A stretch of 53,052 nt of DNA from Candidatus Staskawiczbacteria bacterium (GCA_963778905.1 CAVZWH010000007.1:1-53052), one strand, 5' to 3'. Shown: positions 13,126 through 41,728, counted from the first letter of the stretch. Translations and numbers: made by a program. The notes: generated by a model from the sequence alone, not told the origin.

Positions 13126-15838
13126 ATTTTTTAGCTTTTGCTAATTTTGGCCTTTCCTGAATTCTTGGCAAAATTTTTGGCGTTTCAAAAATAATTTTTC
13201 CGTCATCTGCATCAATTAAAATTCTGCTGCCTTCTGCAATTTCATTGGTGACTATTTTAATTGACAAAGGATCCAAAATTAATCTTTGAATCACTCTTTT
13301 TAGCGGACGCGCTCCCAAATTTGGATCAAATCCTTCTTTCACCAAAAGCTCCTTTGCGCTTTGTGAAATTTCAATTTTTATTTCTTTGGCTGCCAAGCGC
13401 TTTTCAACTTTTGACAATTCCAAATCAACAATTTTTTTAATCTGTTCTTTTTGCAAATAATTAAATATCACAATTTCATCAATTCTGTTCAAAAATTCCG
13501 GGCGAAATGCGTCTCTCAACGAATCAAATATTTTTTCTCTCATTGATTCCCTTTCTGCCAATTCTTCTGTGGTGCTAAATCCAAGCGAAGACATTTTGTT
13601 AATAAAATCCGAGCCCAAATTAGAAGTCATTATAATAATTGTGTTTTTGAATGAAACTGCTCTGCCTTTTGAGTCTGTTAATCTGCCGTCTTCAAAAATT
13701 TGCAGTAAAATATTAAAAACATCCGGATGAGCTTTTTCAATTTCATCTAACAACAAAACAGAATACGGCCTGCGTCTTACTTTTTCTGTTAATTGACCGG
13801 CTTCCTCATATCCAACGTATCCTGGCGGAGAACCGATTATTTTTGAAACAGTGTGGCGCTCCATATATTCAGACATGTCCAATCTTATCATTGCTTTTTC
13901 GTCATCAAACAAAAATTCTGCCAAAGCCCTGGCTGTTTCGGTTTTTCCAACTCCTGTAGGTCCCAAAAATAGAAAAGATCCCAATGGTTTATCTTCTTCT
14001 GAAATTCCGGCTCTTGCCCTTCTTATTGCTCTTGAAATTGCTGAAATTGCTTCCTCTTGACCAACCACTCGCCTGTTCAGCGTGCCCTCCATTGTTTCTA
14101 ACTTTTTTGCTTCTTCTGTAATCAAGCGCATAACCGGAATTCCGGTCCAACGCGAAACAACTTTGGCAACTTCTTCCTCGGTCACTTCTTCTTTCATTAA
14201 TCTGTGCTCTTTTTGTATTTTTATTAATTTTTGTTCTATGGCAGCCAATTCTTTTAACAATTCCGGAATTTTTCCATATTTTATTTCAGCAACTTTTTCC
14301 AAATCAGCTTCTCTTTGGGCAATTTCTGTCTGATAAGAAAGATTATCAATTTTTTCTCTGATATCTTTTATTTTATTAATCAATTCTTTTTCAGCTCCCC
14401 ATCTTAATCTCAATGCTTTTGTTTTTTCATTCAAATCAGCCAATTCCCTGGAAATTACTTTGAGCCGTCTTTCAGATCCTTTTTCTTTTTTTAACGCCTG
14501 CTTTTCAATTTCTAATTTTGTAATTTCCTCGTTAAATTTTTCCAACTCCTGCGGGTCGGATTCGTTTTCTAATCTCAAAGCCGATGCCGCTTCGTCCATC
14601 AAGTCAACTGCTTTGTCCGGCAAAAATCGGTCAGCAATATATCTTGAAGCCAAATCAACCGCGGCCTTGATCGCCGAGTCCTTTATTTTTACTCCGTGGT
14701 GCAATTCATATTTTTCTTTGATTCCCCGTAAAATTGCGGTGGCGTCTTCGGCGTTCGGCTCCTGCACATAAATCGGCTGAAATCTTCTTTCCAAAGCAGG
14801 ATCTTTTTCAATATATTTTTGATATTCTTTCAAGGTTGTAGCTCCAATTGCCCTTAATTCTCCGCGAGACAAAGCCGGCTTTAACAAATTTGAAGCATCA
14901 ATTGCTCCCTCGGCGGCTCCCGCTCCAACCAACGTATGCAGCTCGTCAATAAACAAAATATATTTTCCAGCAGCTCTGTTCACTTCTTTTAGCAAGGCCT
15001 TAATTCTTGTTTCAAATTCTCCTCTGTATTTTGTTCCGGCAATTATGGCCCCCAAATCCAAAGAAATTATTTCTTTATCTTTCAAAAATTCCGGCACATT
15101 TCCGCGCGCAATTCTTTGCGCAAACCCTTCCACAATTGCTGTTTTTCCAACTCCGGCTTCTCCAATTAAAACCGGATTATTTTTTGTTCTGCGCGAAATT
15201 ATCTGCATTAATCTGCGTATTTCATTATCTCTGCCAATTATCGGATCAATTTTTCCTGCAGCTGCCAAGTTAGTTAAATTTCTTGTATATTTTTCTATTA
15301 CCTGATATTTTGCTTCAGGTTCTGCGTCTGTAATTCTTTGACCGCCTCTTATCTGCGACAAAATTTTCATAACTGCCTCGTAATCAAGTTTTGAATTTTT
15401 GAAACTATTTGCCTCGGACCCAAAGGGTACCCCCGCCAAAAAATTAATTTTTTCCAAAATATCTTTTGCCGTAGATTTTGTGTCCACTAAAGCCAAAAAT
15501 AAATGCTCAACTGAAATAAATTCGTCGTTCATTTTTATTGCTTCCTGCCTGGCTCTGTCTAAAACTTTTGCCATATCCTGCGTTAAATAAAACTGACCGA
15601 AAGCCTGTTGAGCAGCAATTGTCGGAATTTTCGCAATTTGCGTATCAATTTTTTTGGCTAAGGCATCTGCATCAATTCCAAGTTTTTGCAAAATTGTAAT
15701 TACAATTGAGCCTTCCTGCAAAAGCAAAGCAGACAACAAATGCAAGGCATCAATTTGCGCCTGCCCTTTTTCCTGAGCCAATTGCTGAGCCTGCATTAGC
15801 GCATCCTGAGCTTTATTTGTAAAATTATTTCCATTCAC
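13124..15838 (-). CDS. clpB: ATP-dependent chaperone ClpB
   Basis: Two AAA+ domains (GEAGVGKT/FIDELH; GPTGVGKT/LLDEIEKAH), coiled-coil M domain, Clp-N domain. The GTG start is supplied by the MITE end. Confidence 0.96.
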   Translation of the reverse strand: MNGNNFTNKAQDALMQAQQLAQEKGQAQIDALHLLSALLLQEGSIVITILQKLGIDADALAKKIDTQIAKIPTIAAQQAFGQFYLTQDMAKVLDRARQEAIKMNDEFISVEHLFLALVDTKSTAKDILEKINFLAGVPFGSEANSFKNSKLDYEAVMKILSQIRGGQRITDAEPEAKYQVIEKYTRNLTNLAAAGKIDPIIGRDNEIRRLMQIISRRTKNNPVLIGEAGVGKTAIVEGFAQRIARGNVPEFLKDKEIISLDLGAIIAGTKYRGEFETRIKALLKEVNRAAGKYILFIDELHTLVGAGAAEGAIDASNLLKPALSRGELRAIGATTLKEYQKYIEKDPALERRFQPIYVQEPNAEDATAILRGIKEKYELHHGVKIKDSAIKAAVDLASRYIADRFLPDKAVDLMDEAASALRLENESDPQELEKFNEEITKLEIEKQALKKEKGSERRLKVISRELADLNEKTKALRLRWGAEKELINKIKDIREKIDNLSYQTEIAQREADLEKVAEIKYGKIPELLKELAAIEQKLIKIQKEHRLMKEEVTEEEVAKVVSRWTGIPVMRLITEEAKKLETMEGTLNRRVVGQEEAISAISRAIRRARAGISEEDKPLGSFLFLGPTGVGKTETARALAEFLFDDEKAMIRLDMSEYMERHTVSKIIGSPPGYVGYEEAGQLTEKVRRRPYSVLLLDEIEKAHPDVFNILLQIFEDGRLTDSKGRAVSFKNTIIIMTSNLGSDFINKMSSLGFSTTEELAERESMREKIFDSLRDAFRPEFLNRIDEIVIFNYLQKEQIKKIVDLELSKVEKRLAAKEIKIEISQSAKELLVKEGFDPNLGARPLKRVIQRLILDPLSIKIVTNEIAEGSRILIDADDGKIIFETPKILPRIQERPKLAKAKK
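15416..15433 (+). repeat. 18-nt micro-hairpin repeat, in frame in clpB (GVPFGS)
   Basis: GGACCCAAAGGGTACCCC. Confidence 0.75.
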
Positions 15839-15969
15839 CCCGTTAGAAGTCTATCTTAATATAACAAAAAGTTAACTTTAGATAGACCTTGTTTACTTTA
15901 CTATTCCCCGTTATTACCGAGCAGAAAAAATTTAAATAAAATTTTTTCTGCCCAAGACTTCTAACGGGG
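15838..15969. mobile_element. MITE-like element, 132 bp, 15-bp TIR, 4-bp TSD
   Basis: CCCCGTTAGAAGTCT...AGACTTCTAACGGGG flanked by TTCA (15834-15837) and TTCA (15970-15973). Confidence 0.85.
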
Positions 15970-25206: not shown

Positions 25207-27375
25207 TTATGCTGCGACTTTTTCTTCCGCTTTTTCCAAAACCTCTTTTGCTATTTCCGTCGGGCAGACAAACTCCTTTCTTTCTTTGTATTCTTCTTGC
25301 TTGCCTTTGTGCCATTGCTGAACCGGCCTAATGTATCCTACAACTCTTGAATAAACTTCGCAGGGCTGTTTTATCGTGCATTGAGGGCATTCAAAATGTT
25401 CGCCGGAAAGATAACCGTGCGTTGGGCAAATTGAAAAAGTTGGAGTTAAAGTAATGTACGGCAAGCTGTATTTTTCAAATATTTTTTTAACTAAATTTTT
25501 TGCCATATTCGGGTCTGAAATTTTTTCTCCCAAAAATATGTGCAAAACGGTTCCGCCGGTATATTTTGTCTGCAAGTTATTTTGCAAGTCCAAAGCCTCA
25601 AAAACATCGTCTGTAAAACCAACCGGCAACTGGCTTGAATTTGTGTAAAATGGAACTTCATTTGTGCCAGCTGTAATAATATCAGGATATTTTTCTTTGT
25701 CGGTTTTTGCCTGTCTGTAACTTGTGCCTTCGGCCGGAGTTGCTTCCAAATTATACAAATTTCCAGTTTCTTCCTGAAATTTTATCATTTTGTCTCGCAT
25801 AAAATCTAAAATTTCAATGGCAAATTTTCTGCCTTTTGGAGTTGTAATGTCTTCTTCCAAAAAGTTGAGCAAAGATTCGTTCATTCCGCAAATTCCAATT
25901 GTTGCAAAATGATTTCCAAAATAAGAATTTCGCAAAGTTTTTACATCGGCCAAATAATGCCTTGAATAAGGATAAAGCCCTTTTTCCATAAAGTTATCCA
26001 ATGCCTTTCTTTTAATTTCTAAACTTTCTTTTGCCAAGTCCATCAAATGGCTTAGGCGATTAAAAAATTCTGTTTTTGTTTTGGAAGTATATCCGATTCT
26101 CGGCAAATTAATTGTAACCACTCCAATTGATCCTGTTTTTGGAGAAGAGCCAAACAATCCGCCGCCTCTTTTGTACAATTCCCTATTATCTAAACGCAAC
26201 CTGCAACACATTGACCTGGCGTCATCGGGACTCATGTCTGAATGGATAAAATTTGAAAAATAATTTATTCCGTATTTTGCTGTTGCTTCCCACATTGCCG
26301 CTAAATTTGGATTATCCCATTCAAAATCTTTTCCAACGGAAACTGTTGGAATTGGAAAAGTAAACGGCCTGCCGGATGCGTCTCCTTCCATTAAACCTTC
26401 GTAGAAAGCTTTTATAAACATATCTATTTCCGGCTGAAATTCTCCATAGGTTTCGTTTTGCGGTTCGCCACCGATTATTACCGGCTGCTTTGCCAAAAAT
26501 ACCGGCGGCTTAATGTCCAAAGAAACATTTAAGAATGGTGTCTGGAAACCAACGCGTGTGGGCACCATGCAGCTGTATAAAAATTCCTGCATCACTTGTT
26601 TTACCTGTTTGTAATTTAAGTTGTCGTATCTGATGAACGGAGCCAACAATGTGTCAAAGTTTGAAATAGCATTTGCTCCGGCCGTTTCTCCCTGCAAAGT
26701 AAACAAAACATTTACTAATTGCCCCATGGCAGTTCTAAGATGCTTTGGAGGTTTGCATTCTATTTTTCCCGACACTCCGCCAAATCCTTTTATTAAAAAA
26801 TCATACAAGTCCCAGCCGGCGCAATATGGAGCCAGCAACTCTAGGTTATGAATATGAAAATCTTCGCTGGCTGCAGCATCTCTTATTTCTTTTGGATAAA
26901 TTTTGTTCAGCCAATATTTTTTTGAAATAAAAGAACCGACATACTGGTTTAGTCCCTGCAAAGAAAAAGTCATGTTGGCGTTTTCTTTAACCTGCCAGTC
27001 AACCTCTTTTAGATAACTGTCTATTTTTTCTGAAGACTCATCTGAAACCTTCGCCAACTCACGAATTGCCCTTCTCTGCTCCCTGTATAAAATATATGCT
27101 TTTGCGGTTTCAACCAAATCTTCCAAAATCAACGCTTCTTCAACAATGTCCTGAATCTGTTCAATGTGTGGAATTTCGCCTTTTTTGAACCTGCGGTTTA
27201 ACAGCTGAACAACTTTGTCTGAAACTTTTTTGGAAATTTCGCCGTCACCTTGATTTGCTGCAATAACTGCCTTATGAATTGCATTGACAATTTTTTCCTG
27301 CTCAAAATCAACAATTCTTCCGTCTCTCTTTTGAACTTTTTCTATATTATTTTTTACTTTTACTTCTGCTTCCAT
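25207..27375 (-). CDS. nrdD: Class III (anaerobic) ribonucleoside-triphosphate reductase with ATP cone
   Basis: N-terminal ATP cone (VQKRDGRIVDF), SMCCRL, Zn-binding CPTH...CPQC, glycyl-radical YSRVVGYIRPV. Confidence 0.95.
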   Translation of the reverse strand: MEAEVKVKNNIEKVQKRDGRIVDFEQEKIVNAIHKAVIAANQGDGEISKKVSDKVVQLLNRRFKKGEIPHIEQIQDIVEEALILEDLVETAKAYILYREQRRAIRELAKVSDESSEKIDSYLKEVDWQVKENANMTFSLQGLNQYVGSFISKKYWLNKIYPKEIRDAAASEDFHIHNLELLAPYCAGWDLYDFLIKGFGGVSGKIECKPPKHLRTAMGQLVNVLFTLQGETAGANAISNFDTLLAPFIRYDNLNYKQVKQVMQEFLYSCMVPTRVGFQTPFLNVSLDIKPPVFLAKQPVIIGGEPQNETYGEFQPEIDMFIKAFYEGLMEGDASGRPFTFPIPTVSVGKDFEWDNPNLAAMWEATAKYGINYFSNFIHSDMSPDDARSMCCRLRLDNRELYKRGGGLFGSSPKTGSIGVVTINLPRIGYTSKTKTEFFNRLSHLMDLAKESLEIKRKALDNFMEKGLYPYSRHYLADVKTLRNSYFGNHFATIGICGMNESLLNFLEEDITTPKGRKFAIEILDFMRDKMIKFQEETGNLYNLEATPAEGTSYRQAKTDKEKYPDIITAGTNEVPFYTNSSQLPVGFTDDVFEALDLQNNLQTKYTGGTVLHIFLGEKISDPNMAKNLVKKIFEKYSLPYITLTPTFSICPTHGYLSGEHFECPQCTIKQPCEVYSRVVGYIRPVQQWHKGKQEEYKERKEFVCPTEIAKEVLEKAEEKVAA

Positions 27376-27509
27376 AATAATTTGGGGACAAAAAAATGGC
27401 CGGAGCCTTTAATTAATTTTTAAACTTAAAAATCTTTTTGCGACGAAAAACTTTTAAGTGGTATATCTGTTCATTACTACATTTTACTCTACCCAAAAAC
27501 TAGGTCAAG

Positions 27510-27607
27510 CCCCGTTAGAAATTATATTGTTCGTGAAATCTGTGGAAAACTTTTAACAAAAATAATTTTTCAGCTTTTTTCCGTTTTTACTATGATTTCT
27601 AACGGGG
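27510..27607. mobile_element. MITE-like element, 98 bp, 13-bp TIR, 4-bp TSD
   Basis: CCCCGTTAGAAAT...ATTTCTAACGGGG flanked by CAAG (27506-27509) and CAAG (27608-27611). Confidence 0.85.
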
Positions 27608-27632
27608 CAAGAGCCACTTTGCATATAAAATC

Positions 27633-27641
27633 TGTGAATAA
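27633..27641 (-). promoter_or_regulatory. DnaA box upstream of nrdD
   Basis: TGTGAATAA = TTATTCACA (TTATNCACA consensus); a one-mismatch box TGTGGAAAA lies at 27541-27549. Confidence 0.4.
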
Positions 27642-27648
27642 GTTATGC

Positions 27649-27689
27649 TTTAGCAAAAAAAACGCCTCCTGGGCGTTTTTTTTGCTAAA
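27649..27689 (-). terminator. Terminator after ftsZ
   Basis: TTTAGCAAAAAAAACGCC-TCCTG-GGCGTTTTTTTTGCTAAA, 18-bp stem. Confidence 0.75.
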
Positions 27690-37922: not shown

Positions 37923-39941
37923 ATGAAAAGTTTAGTAATAGTAGAAAGCCCCACAAAGGCAAAAACAATTCAAAAATTTTTAGGCGACACTTTTATTATC
38001 AAGTCGTCTTTCGGTCACGTGAGAGATTTGCCAAAAAGAGAATTTGGAGTAGATGTTGAAAAAAACTTTGAGCCAAAATATGTTATTCCTCCAAAAGCTA
38101 AAAAAGTTATCGCTGAATTAAAAAAGGATTCTGCAAAAGCAGACAATACAATTCTGGCAACTGACGAAGACCGCGAAGGAGAATCAATTGCCTGGCACTT
38201 GCAGCAGGCCTTAAAATTAAAAAATCCACAAAGAATTGTATTCCATGAAATTACAAAAACAGCAATTGAAAATGCTTTAGAAAAACCGAGGCACATTGAT
38301 ATGAATTTGGTTGACGCCCAGCAGGCAAGAAGAATTTTAGACAGAATCGTGGGCTATAAACTCTCTCCATTTTTATGGAAAAAAGTTGCCAAAGGGTTGT
38401 CAGCGGGCAGAGTGCAATCTGTGGCTGTAAGATTAATCGTTGAAAAAGAAAGAGAAATTGAAAAATTTGTCCCAACAGAATATTGGAGTATTGAAGCAAT
38501 TTTGAAAAACGACCCACAAGTGGGTACCCCGAAAGAATTTGTCGCAAAACTTGTGAAAATTGACGGACTGGTAAAGAATAAATCAGAGGCAGATAAAATT
38601 TTACAGGATTTGAATAATGCAGATTATATTGTAGATTCTGTAGAAAAAAAAGAAACAAAAAGATATCCTGCTCCCCCGTTCACAACCAGCACCCTGCAGC
38701 AGGCCTCATGGCAAAGATTTAAGTTTTCTGCAAAAATGACAATGTCTTTGGCGCAACGGCTTTACGAAGAAGGAAATATTACTTATCACAGAACTGATTC
38801 GTTAAATTTGTCTGAAACGTCATTGGCTGCTGCAAAAGATTTTATTTCAGAAAAATATGGAAAAAATTATTGGACCGGAAAAATTGTAAAATATAAAACA
38901 AAAAGTAATTCGGCGCAGGAAGCGCACGAAGCTATAAGGCCAGCTTATGCTGCCCGCACACCAGAATCATTAAAAAATTTAGATTCAAGACAATTAAAAC
39001 TTTACACATTAATTTGGCAAAGATTTATCGCCTGCCAAATGGCGCCGGCTATACTTGATTCAGTTGCCGCTGATATCAATGCAAAAAATTATACTTTCAG
39101 AGCCAATGGCCAGACCTTAAGGTTTGACGGATTTTTGAAAGTTTATCCGACAAAATTTGAGGAAACAGAACTGCCTGATTTGGAAAAGGGACACAAATTG
39201 GACTTTGTAAAATTAGACTCTCTGCAGCATTTTACAGAGCCACCGGCAAGATACACCGAAGCCAGTTTAATAAAAACTTTGGAAAAATTTGGCATTGGCA
39301 GACCTTCAACTTATGCTCCAACTTTGTCTACAATCCAAGACAGAAATTATGTTGAAAAAAATGAACAAAAAAGATTTGTGCCCACAGAAATGGGAACCAT
39401 TGTGAATGACGTTTTAGTCAAAAATTTTCCTGAAATTGTTGATATAGATTTTACGGTAAAAATGGAAAAAGAATTAGACGAGATAGCTGACGGAAAAGAC
39501 ACCTGGCAAAAAACCTGCAAAGATTTTTATACTCCGTTTGCCAAAAACCTGGAAAACAAATATAAAGAAGTAAAGAAAGAAAACCTTACAGAAAAGACCG
39601 ATAAAATCTGTCCAAAATGCGGCTCTCCAATAATTGAACGAATGGGAAGATTTGGAAGATTTTATGCCTGCTCTAAATTTCCCGAATGCAAATATACAGA
39701 ATCTATAGAAGATAAAAACAAAAATTTAGGAATTAAATGTCCAAAATGCAAAGAAGGAGATATTGTTGCTAGAAAAACTAAGCGAAAAAAAATATTTTAT
39801 GGCTGCAATAAATTTCCAAAATGCGACTTTGCTTTATGGGACAAGCCGATAAATGAATTTTGTCCGAAGTGCAACTCAATACTGACCCAAAAAGGCAAAC
39901 AAATAAAATGTTCTAATAAGGAGTGTGATTATGTCAAATGA
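37923..39941 (+). CDS. topA: DNA topoisomerase I
   Basis: IVESPTKAKTI, ATDEDREGE, SAGRVQS, ITYHRTD, AQEAHEAIRP; three C-terminal Zn ribbons. Confidence 0.97.
   Translation: MKSLVIVESPTKAKTIQKFLGDTFIIKSSFGHVRDLPKREFGVDVEKNFEPKYVIPPKAKKVIAELKKDSAKADNTILATDEDREGESIAWHLQQALKLKNPQRIVFHEITKTAIENALEKPRHIDMNLVDAQQARRILDRIVGYKLSPFLWKKVAKGLSAGRVQSVAVRLIVEKEREIEKFVPTEYWSIEAILKNDPQVGTPKEFVAKLVKIDGLVKNKSEADKILQDLNNADYIVDSVEKKETKRYPAPPFTTSTLQQASWQRFKFSAKMTMSLAQRLYEEGNITYHRTDSLNLSETSLAAAKDFISEKYGKNYWTGKIVKYKTKSNSAQEAHEAIRPAYAARTPESLKNLDSRQLKLYTLIWQRFIACQMAPAILDSVAADINAKNYTFRANGQTLRFDGFLKVYPTKFEETELPDLEKGHKLDFVKLDSLQHFTEPPARYTEASLIKTLEKFGIGRPSTYAPTLSTIQDRNYVEKNEQKRFVPTEMGTIVNDVLVKNFPEIVDIDFTVKMEKELDEIADGKDTWQKTCKDFYTPFAKNLENKYKEVKKENLTEKTDKICPKCGSPIIERMGRFGRFYACSKFPECKYTESIEDKNKNLGIKCPKCKEGDIVARKTKRKKIFYGCNKFPKCDFALWDKPINEFCPKCNSILTQKGKQIKCSNKECDYVK
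38510..38530 (+). repeat. 21-nt micro-hairpin repeat, in frame in topA (DPQVGTP)
   Basis: CGACCCACAAGTGGGTACCCC. Confidence 0.7.
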
Positions 39942-41728
39942 CATACAAAAAATAATAAAAAGAAGTTCAGATCCAAAATTAATTGAGTCTGCTTTTGAGT
40001 TTGCCAAAGAAGCCTACAAAGATAAAAATCGCATATCCGGAGAAAATTACATTTATCATGCTACCAGGGTGGCTTTGGCTCTTGATAAAATGGGTTTAGA
40101 CCCGACAACAATTGCTTTTGGAATATTGCACGACGTGTTGGATGACCTGCCCAGCTCTGCAAAAAATGTTGAAGCAAAAGAGATTGAAAAAAAATTCGAC
40201 AAAGAAACAGCCAAGCTGGTAGAAAAAATTTCAGAACTCGGCAAAGTCCGCTATTCTTTGTCAATCAATATAAAAGATAAAAAAACACTTACAAGAGAAA
40301 AAATAGAAAATTTGAGAAGAATGTTTTTAGCTATAGCCGGAGATTTAAGGGTGGTTTTAGTAGAACTTATTTCAAGATTAGACACCTTAAATTTTTTGCG
40401 AGATTTGCCGGAAGACCAGCGAAAGTTATATGCTCTTGAAACTTTACAGGTTTTTGTTCCTGTTGCCAACAGATTGGGTTTAAGTGAAATCAGAAGAAGT
40501 CTTGAAGATATAGCTTTTTCCTATTTATTCCCGGAAAAATTTAAGCAGCTGAAAGAAAACATCAAAGAACAATACGAAGAAAGAGAAAAATATCTCAAAA
40601 AATTTATTCCGCACTTGAGAAAAATTTTCAAAAAAGAAAGGGTAAAAGTTTTGGGTATAAATTACAGGGCAAAATCATATTGGAGCACCTATCAAAAATT
40701 AGTTAAACACAATATGGATTTTGAAAAAATCCACGATTTGCTGGCTTTAAGAATAATTGTTGCTGACATTGAAAGCTGTTATAAAGTTTTGGGCATAATT
40801 CACAAACATTTTAAGCCCATTTCCGAGGAAATCAACGATTACATTGCCAAGCCAAAATCCAATGGATACAGATCGTTGCACACTACAATTTTTCCCGAAG
40901 AAGGAAAAATAACTGAAATTCAAATAAGAACCGATGAAATGAACAAAGAGGCCGAATACGGCATTTGCGCGCACTGGTCATACAAAGAAAAAATAGATCT
41001 TAAAAAAGAAAGCAAAAACTTTGAATGGATGAACACCGTTAGAAGTCAGGGGGACTTGGAAAAAATACAAAAAAAGCAAACTTCTAACGGGGTAAAAGAT
41101 GTGCCGGAATTTTGGAAAACTTTCAAAATTGACTTTTTTACAAACCAAATTTTTACTTTTACCCCAAAAGGAGATGTTATTGTTTTACCAAAAGGTTCAA
41201 GCGCAGTTGATTTTGCTTATGCTGTGCACTCAGATATCGGGAATCACTGCGAGTTCGGCAAAAATCGGCGGCAAAATAGTCCCGCTTGATCATGTTTTAG
41301 AAAATGGAAATGTGGTGGAAGTCGCTGTAAATAAAAATAAAAATCCAAGCAAAGATTGGTTAAGATTTGTCAAAACATCTTTAGCAAAATCACATATAAA
41401 AAAACTCACCGCACAAAACGAAACTGGATTTAAGTTTCCTATTCCCGGTTTTATAAAAAGGAAATTTGCTGAAATTTCCGAGGCCGCAAAAAAGAAAAAG
41501 GAAGAAAAAAATTTGATTAAAAAAGGTGGAATGAGGCATATTTATTTGGCGGGCCAAAAAGGAATGCTAATTCACATCGCAAAATGTTGCAATCCCCAGC
41601 CCGGAGACAAAGTTTCAGCTTATCTTTCCCAACACAGAGCCGCTGTTTTGCACAGAACCTCGTGCAGTAATTTCAAAAAAATTGCAGAAAAATTCCCGGA
41701 AAAAATAATCGATGCTTCGTGGGAGTAG
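39931..41728 (+). CDS. rel: RelA/SpoT-family (p)ppGpp synthetase/hydrolase, split by a +1 frameshift at about 41254
   Basis: HD motif (LHDVLDD), synthetase (DLLALRII, PKSNGYRSLHTT, EIQIRT), TGS (VDFAYAVHSDIGNHC). Removing one T from GAG-T-TCG joins SAKIGGKIVPLDHVLENG of the 41099-41728 ORF. Confidence 0.88.
41034..41092. mobile_element. MITE-like element, 59 bp, in frame inside rel
   Basis: CACCGTTAGAAGT...ACTTCTAACGGGG flanked by TGAA / TAAA; element plus one TSD = 63 bp = 21 codons. Confidence 0.8.

What the first reader, a model, noticed from the sequence alone, without database searches (positions are those of the whole stretch)
27506..27611. Second CCCCGTTAGAA MITE: same ends, unrelated interior, different 4-bp TSD
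Seen: 13-bp TIR with a CAAG duplication. The three copies (132, 98, 59 bp) share only about 11-13 terminal bp, and bases just inside the core co-vary between the two ends of each copy (AGTCT/AGACT, AAT/ATT). This copy lies upstream of nrdD and contains a one-mismatch DnaA box. Inference: a family defined by ends alone, mobilised in trans by a transposase making 4-bp staggered cuts and able to carry variable cargo; no such transposase is in this window.
Basis: partly seen in the sequence, partly recalled or inferred. Interest (0 to 1): 0.65.

Follow-up and report, generated by a model that had tools for sequence, protein, structure and literature searches.

The report
Mini-transposon in nrdD promoter carrying DnaA-box
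A 98-base hairpin-ended mobile element sits on the -35 box of the anaerobic ribonucleotide-reductase promoter of an ultra-small (CPR, Nealsonbacteria-like) bacterium; it pushes the gene's conserved DnaA site away but carries a substitute, and its family is tied to an 85-residue GIY-YIG nuclease gene, not a classical transposase.

Summary
Window 27510-27607 is a 98-bp element with perfect 13-bp inverted ends, flanked by a CAAG duplication.

- **Copies.** It is one of 15 end-paired copies in this 741-kb genome. I collected 74 such copies across relatives; 52 have a perfect 4-bp duplication, consensus Y-N-N-R.
- **Insertion.** The closest relatives have the uninterrupted site, so this is a true insertion.
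- **Site.** It lies between a family-wide DnaA box and the nrdD -35 hexamer. The duplicated CTTG rebuilds the -35.
- **The DnaA box is not chance.** Every copy of 66 bp or more found at this site, in four species, carries a DnaA box 21-32 nt from the -35. Only 2 of 70 copies elsewhere have one.
- **Interiors.** Some about 128-bp copies are deletion derivatives of a 274-282-bp full-length form with the same ends.
- **Full-length form.** Its only gene is an 85-residue single-domain GIY-YIG nuclease. One such copy is in this genome (contig 30).
- **Closest described system.** Ssn nucleases with their hairpin repeats (Chenal 2025), for which mobility was only hypothesised.

The enzyme's role in movement is inferred here, not shown.

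The parts
27510..27607 (.). 98-bp non-autonomous hairpin-ended element (MITE-like). It is absent from the same site in the closest relatives.
   Evidence: Empty site in G019, G001 and about 25 other genomes. As single-stranded DNA the two arms form a 14-bp stem, z = -3.6.
27506..27509 (.). Left copy of the target-site duplication: CAAG on the plus strand, CTTG on the nrdD strand. On the nrdD strand it supplies TTG of the -35 hexamer TTGACC.
   Evidence: Relatives have a single CTTG here...AAAGTGGGGGC TTGACC in G019.
27608..27611 (.). Right copy of the target-site duplication (CAAG).
27510..27522 (+). Terminal inverted repeat, arm next to the nrdD promoter (CCCCGTTAGAAAT).
   Evidence: perfect arm length 13.
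27595..27607 (-). Terminal inverted repeat, arm on the ftsZ side (reverse complement of CCCCGTTAGAAAT).
27541..27549 (-). DnaA box inside the element: TTTTCCACA, one mismatch, 32 nt upstream of TTGAC. It has the same orientation as the native box.
   Evidence: The 29 nt around it are 93% identical to the native nrdD operator of genome G093. Boxes at the equivalent place occur in the elements of G010, L142 and L240.
27633..27641 (-). Displaced native DnaA box of nrdD (TTATTCACA, one mismatch). It is now 102 bp further from the -35 than in relatives.
   Evidence: In 29 of 45 related genomes a box (perfect TTATCCACA in 23) lies 21-23 nt upstream of TTGAC.
27481..27508 (-). nrdD sigma-70-type promoter: TTGACC, 16 nt, TAAAAT. 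The -35 hexamer overlaps the duplication.
   Evidence: The same promoter is conserved in relatives.
25207..27375 (-). nrdD, anaerobic ribonucleoside-triphosphate reductase; the gene whose promoter was hit.
   Evidence: PF13597 E 1.8e-187; ATP-cone E 2.8e-21.
27649..27689 (.). Bidirectional terminator-like hairpin after ftsZ (27691-28638, minus strand). It bounds the intergenic region on the far side.
15838..15969 (.). Sister copy, 132 bp, duplication TTCA. It is inserted in the clpB start codon; the element's terminal G plus the duplication gives a GTG start.
41034..41092 (.). Sister copy, 59 bp, inside relA/spoT. With its duplication it adds exactly 63 nt (21 codons) in frame. Orthologues lack these 63 nt.

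Best explanation
**What it is (shown).** Window 27510-27607 is a non-autonomous member of a family of hairpin-ended mobile elements of CPR (Nealsonbacteria-like) bacteria.
- Only the two arms define the family: an invariant CCCCGTTAGAA, then 2-7 more bases that differ between copies but match within a copy.
- Copies range from bare 27-bp hairpins to 282 bp.
- Each copy is flanked by a duplication, usually 4 bp, of a Y-N-N-R target.
- This copy entered at CTTG, which overlaps the -35 hexamer of the nrdD promoter.
- The duplication and the element's terminal GGGG recreate the original GGGGCTTGACC, so the core promoter survives. The conserved DnaA box, normally 21-23 nt upstream, is moved 102 bp away.

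**How it moves (inferred).**
- The full-length form is 274-282 bp and consists of the same arms around one 85-86-residue single-domain GIY-YIG nuclease gene, whose stop codon is the TAA inside the arm.
- The enzyme would be related in kind to the Ssn site-specific single-stranded-DNA nucleases.
- It would recognise the stem formed when the two arms pair in single-stranded DNA, whatever lies in the loop, and cut at a fixed distance from its base.
- That would explain why the ends alone matter, why the arms co-vary and why the cargo is free.
- How the 4-nt staggered target cut and the joining are made is unknown.

**What the interior does (inferred).** The promoter-proximal part of the interior is an nrdD-operator-like segment with its own DnaA box. 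It lies about one helical turn further from the -35 than the native box, and it keeps DnaA control of nrdD. This would be why box-bearing elements are the ones found at this site.
For: **Real insertion**
- Single-copy empty sites occur in the closest relative G019 (93% NrdD identity) and about 25 other genomes.
- The relA copy is missing as exactly 63 nt in G018, G020 and G002.

**Mobile family**
- Same-genus genomes carry from 0 to 18 end-paired copies; the reversed control pattern gives about 0.
- 52 of 74 copies have a perfect 4-bp duplication against 7.6 expected. T is at position 1 in 46 of 52 and A at position 4 in 44 of 52.

**Link to the nuclease**
- Elements with exactly these ends in G016 (two), G023 and G010, and a variant in this genome (contig 30, 18743-19024), contain only a PF01541 GIY-YIG ORF.
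- Five copies of 127-129 bp cluster with these full-length elements.
- The cognate nuclease clade is present in 4 of 6 genomes with at least 10 copies and in 1 of 35 others (p = 7e-4).
- About 10 of 20 divergent paralogues are bracketed by their own different inverted ends starting with CCC. No control pairing (0 of 40) scores as high.

**Other transposases**
- No Y1 transposase and no DDE_Tnp_1 domain in the assembly.

**Precedent**
- Ssn nucleases are 94-residue single-domain GIY-YIG proteins that bind a hairpin repeat in single-stranded DNA and cut beside it. Their genes are flanked by such repeats (PMC11893778).

**DnaA box**
- A box lies 21-23 nt from TTGAC in 29 of 45 genomes.
- All four elements of 66 bp or more at this site carry a box 21-32 nt from TTGAC: G000, G010, L142, L240.
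- Only 2 of 70 copies elsewhere have a box, and 0 of 98 copies on the -35 of other genes have one there (p = 6e-5).
- 27 of 29 nt around the G000 box match the native operator of G093.
- dnaA is present in the genome.
- DnaA control of ribonucleotide-reductase genes is established in E. coli (PMC8203912).
Against: - No biochemical or genetic test links the nuclease to movement.
- A bare GIY-YIG domain has no known strand-transfer activity, and known GIY-YIG enzymes leave 1-2-nt overhangs (my knowledge), not 4.
- Two copy-rich genomes (G013, G029) lack a cognate-clade gene in their assemblies.
- About half of the sampled paralogues have no detectable inverted ends.
- The genome's own full-length copy has a variant arm (CCCCGTTAAAAATC).
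- Assignment to the Ssn clade (CDD cd10448) could not be tested. The best solved relative is a UPF0213 protein, at only E = 1e-4.
- For the box: a 35-bp bare hairpin at the same nrdD site (L294/L296) has none.
- Three of the four box-bearing cases came from searches that required, or followed from, the box. In the unbiased metagenome scan the contrast is 1 of 2 against 0 of 98 (p = 0.02).
- The four elements may descend from one insertion, so they need not be independent.
- How operator DNA came to lie inside the element is unexplained.
Confidence: 0.6

Rival explanations
1. It is an ordinary MITE, moved in trans by a classical DDE transposase (for example an IS5-like or IS1595-like one) that shares its ends. 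The GIY-YIG genes are only one kind of passenger.
For: - Inverted ends plus a fixed-length target duplication are the hallmark of DDE transposition (established knowledge).
- Two copy-rich genomes lack the cognate nuclease.
Against: - No pair of these ends in the genome encloses more than 282 bp.
- In 41 genomes, every pair up to 420 bp apart that is long enough to hold a gene holds only the GIY-YIG ORF.
- No DDE_Tnp_1 or Y1_Tnp domain in the assembly.
- IS1595 elements make 8-bp duplications (my knowledge).
- Divergent GIY-YIG paralogues each have their own matching ends. That is expected of an enzyme and its substrate, not of a passenger.
Confidence: 0.12
2. The nrdD-site elements are one lineage that spreads between species by homing into the conserved GGGG/CTTGACC site. 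A GIY-YIG nuclease cuts the empty allele and repair copies the element. General transposition is not involved; the internal DnaA box simply travels with that lineage.
For: - The same site and the same CTTG flanks are occupied in at least five alleles from several species, while the nearest relatives of G000 are empty.
- The four box-bearing elements align around AG-TTWTCCACAG-WWWT-arm with the same spacing in three of them.
- GIY-YIG enzymes are classical homing endonucleases (PMC12774661 abstract).
Against: - The family as a whole occupies dozens of unrelated sites with different duplications. Homing alone cannot explain that.
- Homing does not duplicate the target.
- These elements carry no nuclease gene themselves.
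- Outside the box region the interiors are not alignable.
Confidence: 0.15
3. It is not mobile at present. It is a conserved structural or regulatory palindrome (REP-like, or a terminator or insulator between ftsZ and nrdD), and the flanking repeat is incidental.
For: The arms form a stable stem. The element lies between a terminator and a promoter.
Against: - It is absent from the same intergenic region in the closest relatives, which have a clean single-copy target.
- The same ends occur inside coding sequences and in a tRNA gene.
- Copy number ranges from 0 to 18 within one genus.
- The duplication rule holds at p about 1e-34.
Confidence: 0.02
4. The internal DnaA-like box has no function. 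It is a remnant of operator DNA that happened to be captured, or a chance match inherited from one ancestral insertion.
For: - The box in G000 has one mismatch and lies 10 nt further out than native boxes.
- A bare hairpin at the same site has no box.
- A related subfamily at other loci in G010 has a two-mismatch version, TTTTCCACT, near one end.
Against: - Between the four elements, only the box and its immediate surroundings are conserved, while the rest diverged beyond alignment.
- Two of the four boxes are perfect 9-mers; this genome has only 11 perfect boxes in all.
- Orientation and spacing mimic the native arrangement.
Confidence: 0.3

Closest known systems
Ssn nucleases with their hairpin repeats (NTS/SRM), Chenal et al., Nat Commun 2025 (PMC11893778)
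   Same: - A single-domain GIY-YIG protein of about 90 residues with no separate DNA-binding domain.
- A gene bracketed by inverted-repeat DNA that also occurs in many copies across the genome.
- Each paralogue has its own repeat sequence.
- The authors themselves note that repeat-gene-repeat looks like an insertion sequence.
   Different: - In Ssn systems each flank is a complete 20-50-nt hairpin. Here each flank is one arm and the gene lies in the loop.
- No target duplications, empty sites or insertions in genes were reported for NTS/SRM; here they are the rule.
- Membership of the Ssn clade (cd10448) is untested, and the nearest solved relative is UPF0213.
- No enzymology is available for these proteins.
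Bacterial MITEs such as Correia/NEMIS elements of Neisseria (my knowledge)
   Same: Short, gene-less, with inverted ends and a fixed short target duplication. Many copies, often next to or inside genes, and able to supply promoter or regulatory signals.
   Different: - Correia elements are a homogeneous sequence family with TA duplications, and no autonomous partner is agreed on.
- Here the interiors are mostly unrelated.
- Sizes run from 27 to 282 bp.
- The partner is a nuclease gene.
Rickettsia palindromic elements (RPEs) (my knowledge)
   Same: Palindromic repeats that insert in frame into protein-coding genes of a reduced genome, as the relA copy does (63 nt, 21 codons).
   Different: No sequence relation was tested. 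RPEs have no defined target duplication and no associated enzyme that I know of.
REP/BIME repeats with RAYT, and IS200/IS605 (HUH Y1 transposases acting on single-stranded hairpins)
   Same: Hairpin-defined repeats, recognised as structure in single-stranded DNA by a small enzyme encoded between two repeats.
   Different: - The enzyme fold and chemistry differ: no Y1_Tnp domain is present here.
- IS200/IS605 make no target duplication and have asymmetric ends.
Free-standing and intron-borne GIY-YIG homing endonucleases (I-TevI, Seg proteins)
   Same: A GIY-YIG catalytic domain in a selfish element. The recurrence of an element at one conserved site in several species (the nrdD -35) resembles homing.
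   Different: - Homing enzymes carry long DNA-binding domains.
- They have no inverted ends.
- They make no duplications.
- They do not generate gene-less derivatives at many sites.

Membership tests
MITE (non-autonomous DNA element with inverted ends) | Short and without a coding gene of its own | tested here: met
   98 bp with no ORF.
MITE (non-autonomous DNA element with inverted ends) | Terminal inverted repeats shared by many copies | tested here: met
   A perfect 13-bp repeat here. There are 15 pairs in the genome and 74 distinct copies in the sampled set, all in the inward-facing orientation.
MITE (non-autonomous DNA element with inverted ends) | Target-site duplication of fixed length | tested here: met
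   52 of 74 copies have a perfect 4-bp duplication, against 7.6 expected. A few are 3 or 5 bp.
MITE (non-autonomous DNA element with inverted ends) | Presence/absence polymorphism with intact empty sites | tested here: met
   The nrdD site is empty in G019, G001 and others. The relA site is empty in G018, G020 and G002.
MITE (non-autonomous DNA element with inverted ends) | A longer coding element with the same ends | tested here: met
   Elements of 274-282 bp with identical ends and a GIY-YIG ORF. Five copies of 127-129 bp cluster with them. This particular copy shows no interior homology to them.
Ssn / SRM system (PMC11893778) | Single-domain GIY-YIG protein of about 90-100 residues | tested here: met
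   85-86 residues, with PF01541 covering residues 1-72 and no other domain.
Ssn / SRM system (PMC11893778) | Belongs to the CDD cd10448 clade | not testable with these tools
   No CDD search and no SsnA sequence was available; the paper's supplements are not held. The nearest solved structure is UPF0213 BH0048, E = 1e-4.
Ssn / SRM system (PMC11893778) | Gene flanked on both sides by hairpin-forming repeats that are also dispersed in the genome | tested here: inconclusive
   The gene is bracketed by inverted DNA that is dispersed in 15 copies. But each flank is a single arm, not a complete hairpin, so the arrangement differs.
Ssn / SRM system (PMC11893778) | Cuts single-stranded DNA specifically, beside its repeat | not testable with these tools
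   This needs purified protein.
Insertion sequence with a DDE or HUH transposase | Encodes a DDE (RNase-H-fold) or HUH Y1 transposase between the ends | tested here: not met
   The only ORF between the ends is the GIY-YIG one. There are no PF01609 or PF01797 hits in the assembly. Other transposase families were not searched.
DnaA-regulated promoter (as E. coli nrdAB, PMC8203912) | A consensus DnaA box TTATCCACA at a conserved position upstream of the promoter | tested here: met
   29 of 45 related genomes have a box 21-23 nt upstream of TTGAC before nrdD, perfect in 23. G000 has two one-mismatch boxes.
DnaA-regulated promoter (as E. coli nrdAB, PMC8203912) | DnaA binds and changes transcription | not testable with these tools
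   dnaA is present. Binding and regulation need experiments.

The most novel reading that the evidence does not exclude
These elements would be a class of prokaryotic transposon that I found nowhere described, and among the smallest autonomous ones (about 280 bp).
- Its only protein is an 85-residue Ssn-like GIY-YIG nuclease that recognises the stem formed by the two ends in single-stranded DNA. Anything placed in the loop is then mobilised.
- In the dense genomes of CPR bacteria the survivors are copies whose terminal GGGG plus the duplication rebuild what they hit: -35 boxes, start codons, tRNA 5' ends.
- Some loops have been turned into portable regulatory modules, such as the DnaA operator delivered to the nrdD promoter.

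A bolder corollary is that the family-wide native nrdD operator is itself a decayed element end. Its spacer ends ...TTTACGACGGGGC or ...AAAGTGGGGC, which resembles the arm TTTCTAACGGGGC at 8-9 of 12 positions.
Probability: 0.35. Interest if true: 0.85.

Novelty: new variant of a known kind. Interest (0 to 1): 0.62.

Why it matters
**For mobile-element biology.**
- The Ssn paper showed in 2025 that tiny GIY-YIG proteins cut single-stranded DNA beside hairpin repeats. It could only guess that the repeat-gene-repeat unit is or was mobile.
- Here the comparative evidence for mobility is direct: target duplications, dozens of empty sites, and in-frame and in-promoter insertions.
- If the nuclease is the mobilising enzyme, this adds a catalytic class to the list of prokaryotic transposases. 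It would also explain a large share of the small GIY-YIG genes that litter CPR genomes: 1-9 per genome in 24 of the 25 genomes of this genus.

**For gene regulation.**
- The nrdD promoter of a whole bacterial family carries a perfectly placed DnaA box. This extends the DnaA-ribonucleotide-reductase link to uncultured CPR bacteria.
- The element shows how a promoter can be hit repeatedly without losing its operator.
- Both points can be tested with oligonucleotides and reporter fusions in laboratory strains.

Tried and rejected
- **Rfam.** A scan of the window gave only one tRNA and nothing at the element.
- **Plasmids.** A tblastn search of the nuclease against the plasmid collection found no match.
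- **Interior homology.** A search with the whole 106-bp stretch in 79 family genomes found no second copy of this interior, only short A/T-rich matches. The one informative hit was G093.
- **Operator pattern.** A pattern search for the G093-type operator in 401 genomes of the order found only G093 and G000. The other four hits were spurious.
- **An idea I dropped.** I first thought the box region was widely conserved and native to G000. The closest relatives show that the distal box, next to the ftsZ terminator, is the native one.
- **A misleading match.** G003's 30-bp copy with CAAG flanks looked orthologous, but it lies on another contig, away from nrdD.
- **Literature.** I found no paper describing a GIY-YIG element with inverted ends and target duplications in bacteria.
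- **Ssn reference sequence.** The Ssn paper's supplements are not held, so no SsnA sequence was available for a membership test.
- **Sequencing reads.** I could not look for filled/empty polymorphism or excision products in reads.
- **Origin of the operator DNA.** I could not work out how it came to lie inside the element. Capture between two neighbouring insertions, as in G010 contig 37 where two elements lie 13 bp apart, is possible but untested.

Full report
**1. The observation**

At 27506-27611 the plus strand reads CAAG | CCCCGTTAGAAAT ... ATTTCTAACGGGG | CAAG. The arms are a perfect 13-bp inverted repeat and the flanks a perfect 4-bp direct repeat.

The 11-mer core, allowing one mismatch, occurs six times in the window. 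The six form three inward-facing pairs (15838-15969, 27510-27607, 41034-41092). Shuffled sequence gives 0.54 matches.

**2. Census**

The window is contig 7 of a 741-kb, 36% G+C assembly. A relative found later is labelled Candidatus Nealsonbacteria, so this is a CPR/Patescibacteria genome.

The assembly holds 15 end-paired copies of 34 to 282 bp. Of these:
- 12 have a perfect 4-bp flanking repeat;
- one has a perfect 5-bp repeat (TGAAA);
- two have one mismatch.

In 24 genomes of the same genus the number of pairs runs from 0 to 18. The reversed control pattern is essentially absent.

From this genome and fetched regions of relatives I collected 74 distinct copies.
- 52 have a perfect 4-bp duplication, against 7.6 expected with shuffled partners (p about 1e-34).
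- The duplicated target is Y-N-N-R: T at position 1 in 46 of 52, A at position 4 in 44 of 52.
- G is preferred just before the target (27 of 52).

Arm positions 12 and 13 differ between copies but agree within a copy in 89% and 95% of cases, against 47% and 55% with shuffled partners.

**3. It is an insertion, and where**

The flanking genes are ftsZ and nrdD. I fetched the region upstream of nrdD from 45 related genomes.

Their common architecture is TAG TTATCCACA - 21 to 23 nt ending in AAAGTGGGGC - TTGACC - 17 nt - TAAAAT. A DnaA box with at most one mismatch stands at that distance in 29 of 45 genomes, and it is perfect in 23.

The closest relative, G019 (93% identity over the first 100 NrdD residues), reads TTATCCACA GATTTTATATTGAAAGTGGGGGC TTGACC TAGTTTTTGGGCGGAGTAAAAT. 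G000 reads, on the nrdD strand, TTATTCACA GATTTTATATGCAAAGTGGCT CTTG [98-bp element] CTTG ACC TAGTTTTTGGGTAGAGTAAAAT.

So the element entered at CTTG. The duplicated CTTG supplies the TTG of the -35 hexamer (promoter scan). The native DnaA box now lies 102 bp further away and has one mismatch.

The other two window copies are also insertions.
- The relA/spoT copy plus its duplication adds exactly 63 nt in frame, which orthologues in G018, G020 and G002 lack.
- The 132-bp copy splits the clpB start codon, and its last base gives a GTG start.

**4. The interior**

- An all-against-all comparison leaves most interiors as singletons.
- This copy has no second full-length relative in 79 genomes of the family.

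Two qualifications apply.

*First qualification.* Five copies of 127-129 bp cluster with longer elements that carry a gene. They retain about 25 nt of its 3' end next to the arm.

*Second qualification.* The one-mismatch DnaA box is not a chance match.
- The 29 nt around it are 93% identical to the native nrdD operator of G093, a genome of another genus. In G093 the same box stands 22 nt before TTGACT, with no element present.
- Elements with the same ends occupy the same CTTG site in other species. Each carries a forward DnaA box next to the promoter-proximal arm:
  - G010: 130 bp, TTTTCCACA, 21 nt from TTGAC.
  - A Ca. Nealsonbacteria MAG, L142: 66 bp, perfect box, 21 nt.
  - A metagenome contig, L240: 78 bp, perfect box, 21 nt.
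  - In G000 the distance is 32 nt, about one helical turn more.
- The four interiors align only around AG-TTWTCCACAG-WWWT-arm.
- By contrast, a box with at most one mismatch occurs in 2 of 70 copies elsewhere. That is the genomic background rate: 0.28 against 0.35 per kb.
- No box (0 of 98) stands at that position in elements that sit on the CTTGAC of other genes.
- One bare 35-bp hairpin at the nrdD site (L294/L296) has no box.
- The contrast is significant (4 of 5 against 2 of 70, p = 6e-5). But three of the four positives came from searches that required, or followed from, the box. In the unbiased metagenome scan it is 1 of 2 against 0 of 98, p = 0.02.

dnaA is present in the genome. DnaA control of ribonucleotide-reductase genes through boxes upstream of the promoter is established in E. 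coli (PMC8203912).

I conclude that the internal box most likely substitutes for the displaced operator. How operator-like DNA got into the loop is unexplained. G010 shows two elements only 13 bp apart inside the same spacer, so capture between neighbouring insertions is possible.

**5. Promoters as landing sites**

Of 101 distinct sites, 62 have TANNNT 16-18 nt after TTGAC, against 9% for other TTGAC sites in the same contigs (p = 5e-35).

Elements of other end-families sit on the nrdD -35 as well: G022 and G053, with TTGA(C) duplications.

In this genome a 34-bp copy lies in the 5' acceptor strand of a tRNA gene, and its terminal GGG plus the CGTG duplication rebuild that strand. The same site is filled in G016.

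The recurring theme is that GGGG plus the duplication restores what was hit. Whether this reflects target choice or survival of harmless insertions cannot be told from sequence.

**6. The partner gene**

The 282-bp copy on contig 30 (ends CCCCGTTAAAAATC) holds one ORF of 85 residues, whose stop codon lies in the arm.
- It matches Pfam GIY-YIG (E = 4e-15) and nothing else.
- Elements of 274-282 bp with exactly the CCCCGTTAGAA ends, and with TTCA or TGAA duplications, carry 85-86-residue homologues in G016 (two), G023 and G010.
- The two other small GIY-YIG genes of G000 are bracketed by different inverted ends (CCCATCACTAACTTTTG with a TTTA duplication; ATCGGGTTAAATAA).
- Genomes of this genus carry 0-9 such genes (none was found in G017), mostly 30-50% identical to the query.
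- Of 20 sampled, about 10 have their own ends starting with CCC, with scores never reached by 40 control pairings.
- The cognate clade is present in 4 of 6 genomes with at least 10 copies and in 1 of 35 others (p = 7e-4).
- No Y1 transposase and no IS4/IS5-type DDE domain is in the assembly.

**7. Comparison with what is known**

I found no paper describing a bacterial GIY-YIG element with inverted ends and target duplications.

The closest described system is the Ssn family (PMC11893778).
- Ssn proteins are 94-residue single-domain GIY-YIG nucleases that bind a hairpin repeat in single-stranded DNA and cut beside it.
- Their genes are flanked by such repeats on both sides in 42% of homologues.
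- The authors remark on the likeness to insertion sequences and to REP/RAYT, but they show no mobility.

The present elements differ in two ways: the gene lies between the two arms of a single hairpin, and duplications and empty sites are documented. Clade membership (cd10448) could not be tested. The nearest solved structure is a UPF0213 protein, then Slx1.

**8. Mechanism**

*Shown:*
- the insertion and its duplication;
- the ends-only definition of the family;
- the co-varying arms;
- the full-length nuclease-bearing form;
- the statistical link between gene and copies;
- preservation of the promoter;
- the recurrence of the box.

*Inferred:*
- the nuclease recognises the paired arms as a stem in single-stranded DNA and cuts at its base;
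- a 4-nt staggered target cut is filled in;
- the internal box binds DnaA.

*Unknown:*
- how the ends are joined to the target;
- whether movement is cut-and-paste or copy-and-paste.

**9. Verdict**

This is a real, well-supported mobile insertion. It belongs to a family whose enzymatic partner is unusual and barely described. This copy has a specific and testable regulatory twist. Earlier notes of this scan reached the nuclease link independently (read after my).

Noticed in passing
window 41240-41300 (relA/spoT, ORFs 39925-41289 and 41099-41728): relA/spoT is split by a frameshift inside the TGS domain. The first frame ends ...AVHSDIGNHCEFGKNRRQNSPA*, and the conserved continuation (GKIVPLDHVLENGNVVEV...) is in another frame. 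Orthologues have open frames of 580-609 residues. This is either a pseudogene or an assembly error.
   Followed up: no
G000 contig 17, 12801-12834 (L178 1502-1535); also G016:C10:94496-94535: A 34-bp bare-hairpin copy (duplication CGTG) sits in the 5' acceptor strand of a long-arm tRNA gene. The element's last GGG plus the duplication rebuild GGGCGTG, and Rfam calls the tRNA from inside the element. The same site is filled, with a different loop, in a second genome.
   Followed up: partly
upstream of nrdD in relatives (L014-L027, L116-L140); window 27376-27480: Nearly all relatives have a conserved nrdD leader that ends in a terminator-like hairpin directly before the start codon (AAGGCAAATGCC TTTTTTTGTCCCC). 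The leader length is variable (about 30-150 nt). It may be an attenuator or another leader control. Rfam found nothing in the window.
   Followed up: no
L118 (G022), L134 (G053), L056 (G010:C44), L142: Other end-families with short duplications occur in the same genomes. One has ends of the type CCCTTCACCTTT, or CTCTTCACCTTTT. It sits on the nrdD -35 in G022 and G053 with TTGA(C) duplications, and the G022 interior again holds two DnaA-like motifs in inverted orientation. Another, with ends CCCCGTAGAGA, sits on the nrdD start codon in L142 with a TATG duplication.
   Followed up: partly
L055 (G010 contig 37, 55-326) and L017 (G010 contig 33): G010 carries the nrdD promoter on two contigs with different upstream DNA. 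These may be strain variants or a duplication. On contig 37, two elements (129 and 130 bp) lie 13 bp apart inside the 22-nt spacer between the DnaA box and the -35.
   Followed up: partly
window 27521-27548, minus strand: There is a promoter-like pair inside the element, reading towards nrdD: TTTCCA, 16 nt, TATAAT. The -35-like hexamer overlaps the internal DnaA box. The perfect TATAAT is made by the 10-11 nt that G000 has in excess of the G093 operator.
   Followed up: no
relatives G001-G024: About 100 small GIY-YIG genes occur in 24 genomes of one genus (0-9 per 0.5-0.9-Mb genome; G017 has none). Several contain in-frame stop codons, as expected of a decaying selfish family.
   Followed up: partly
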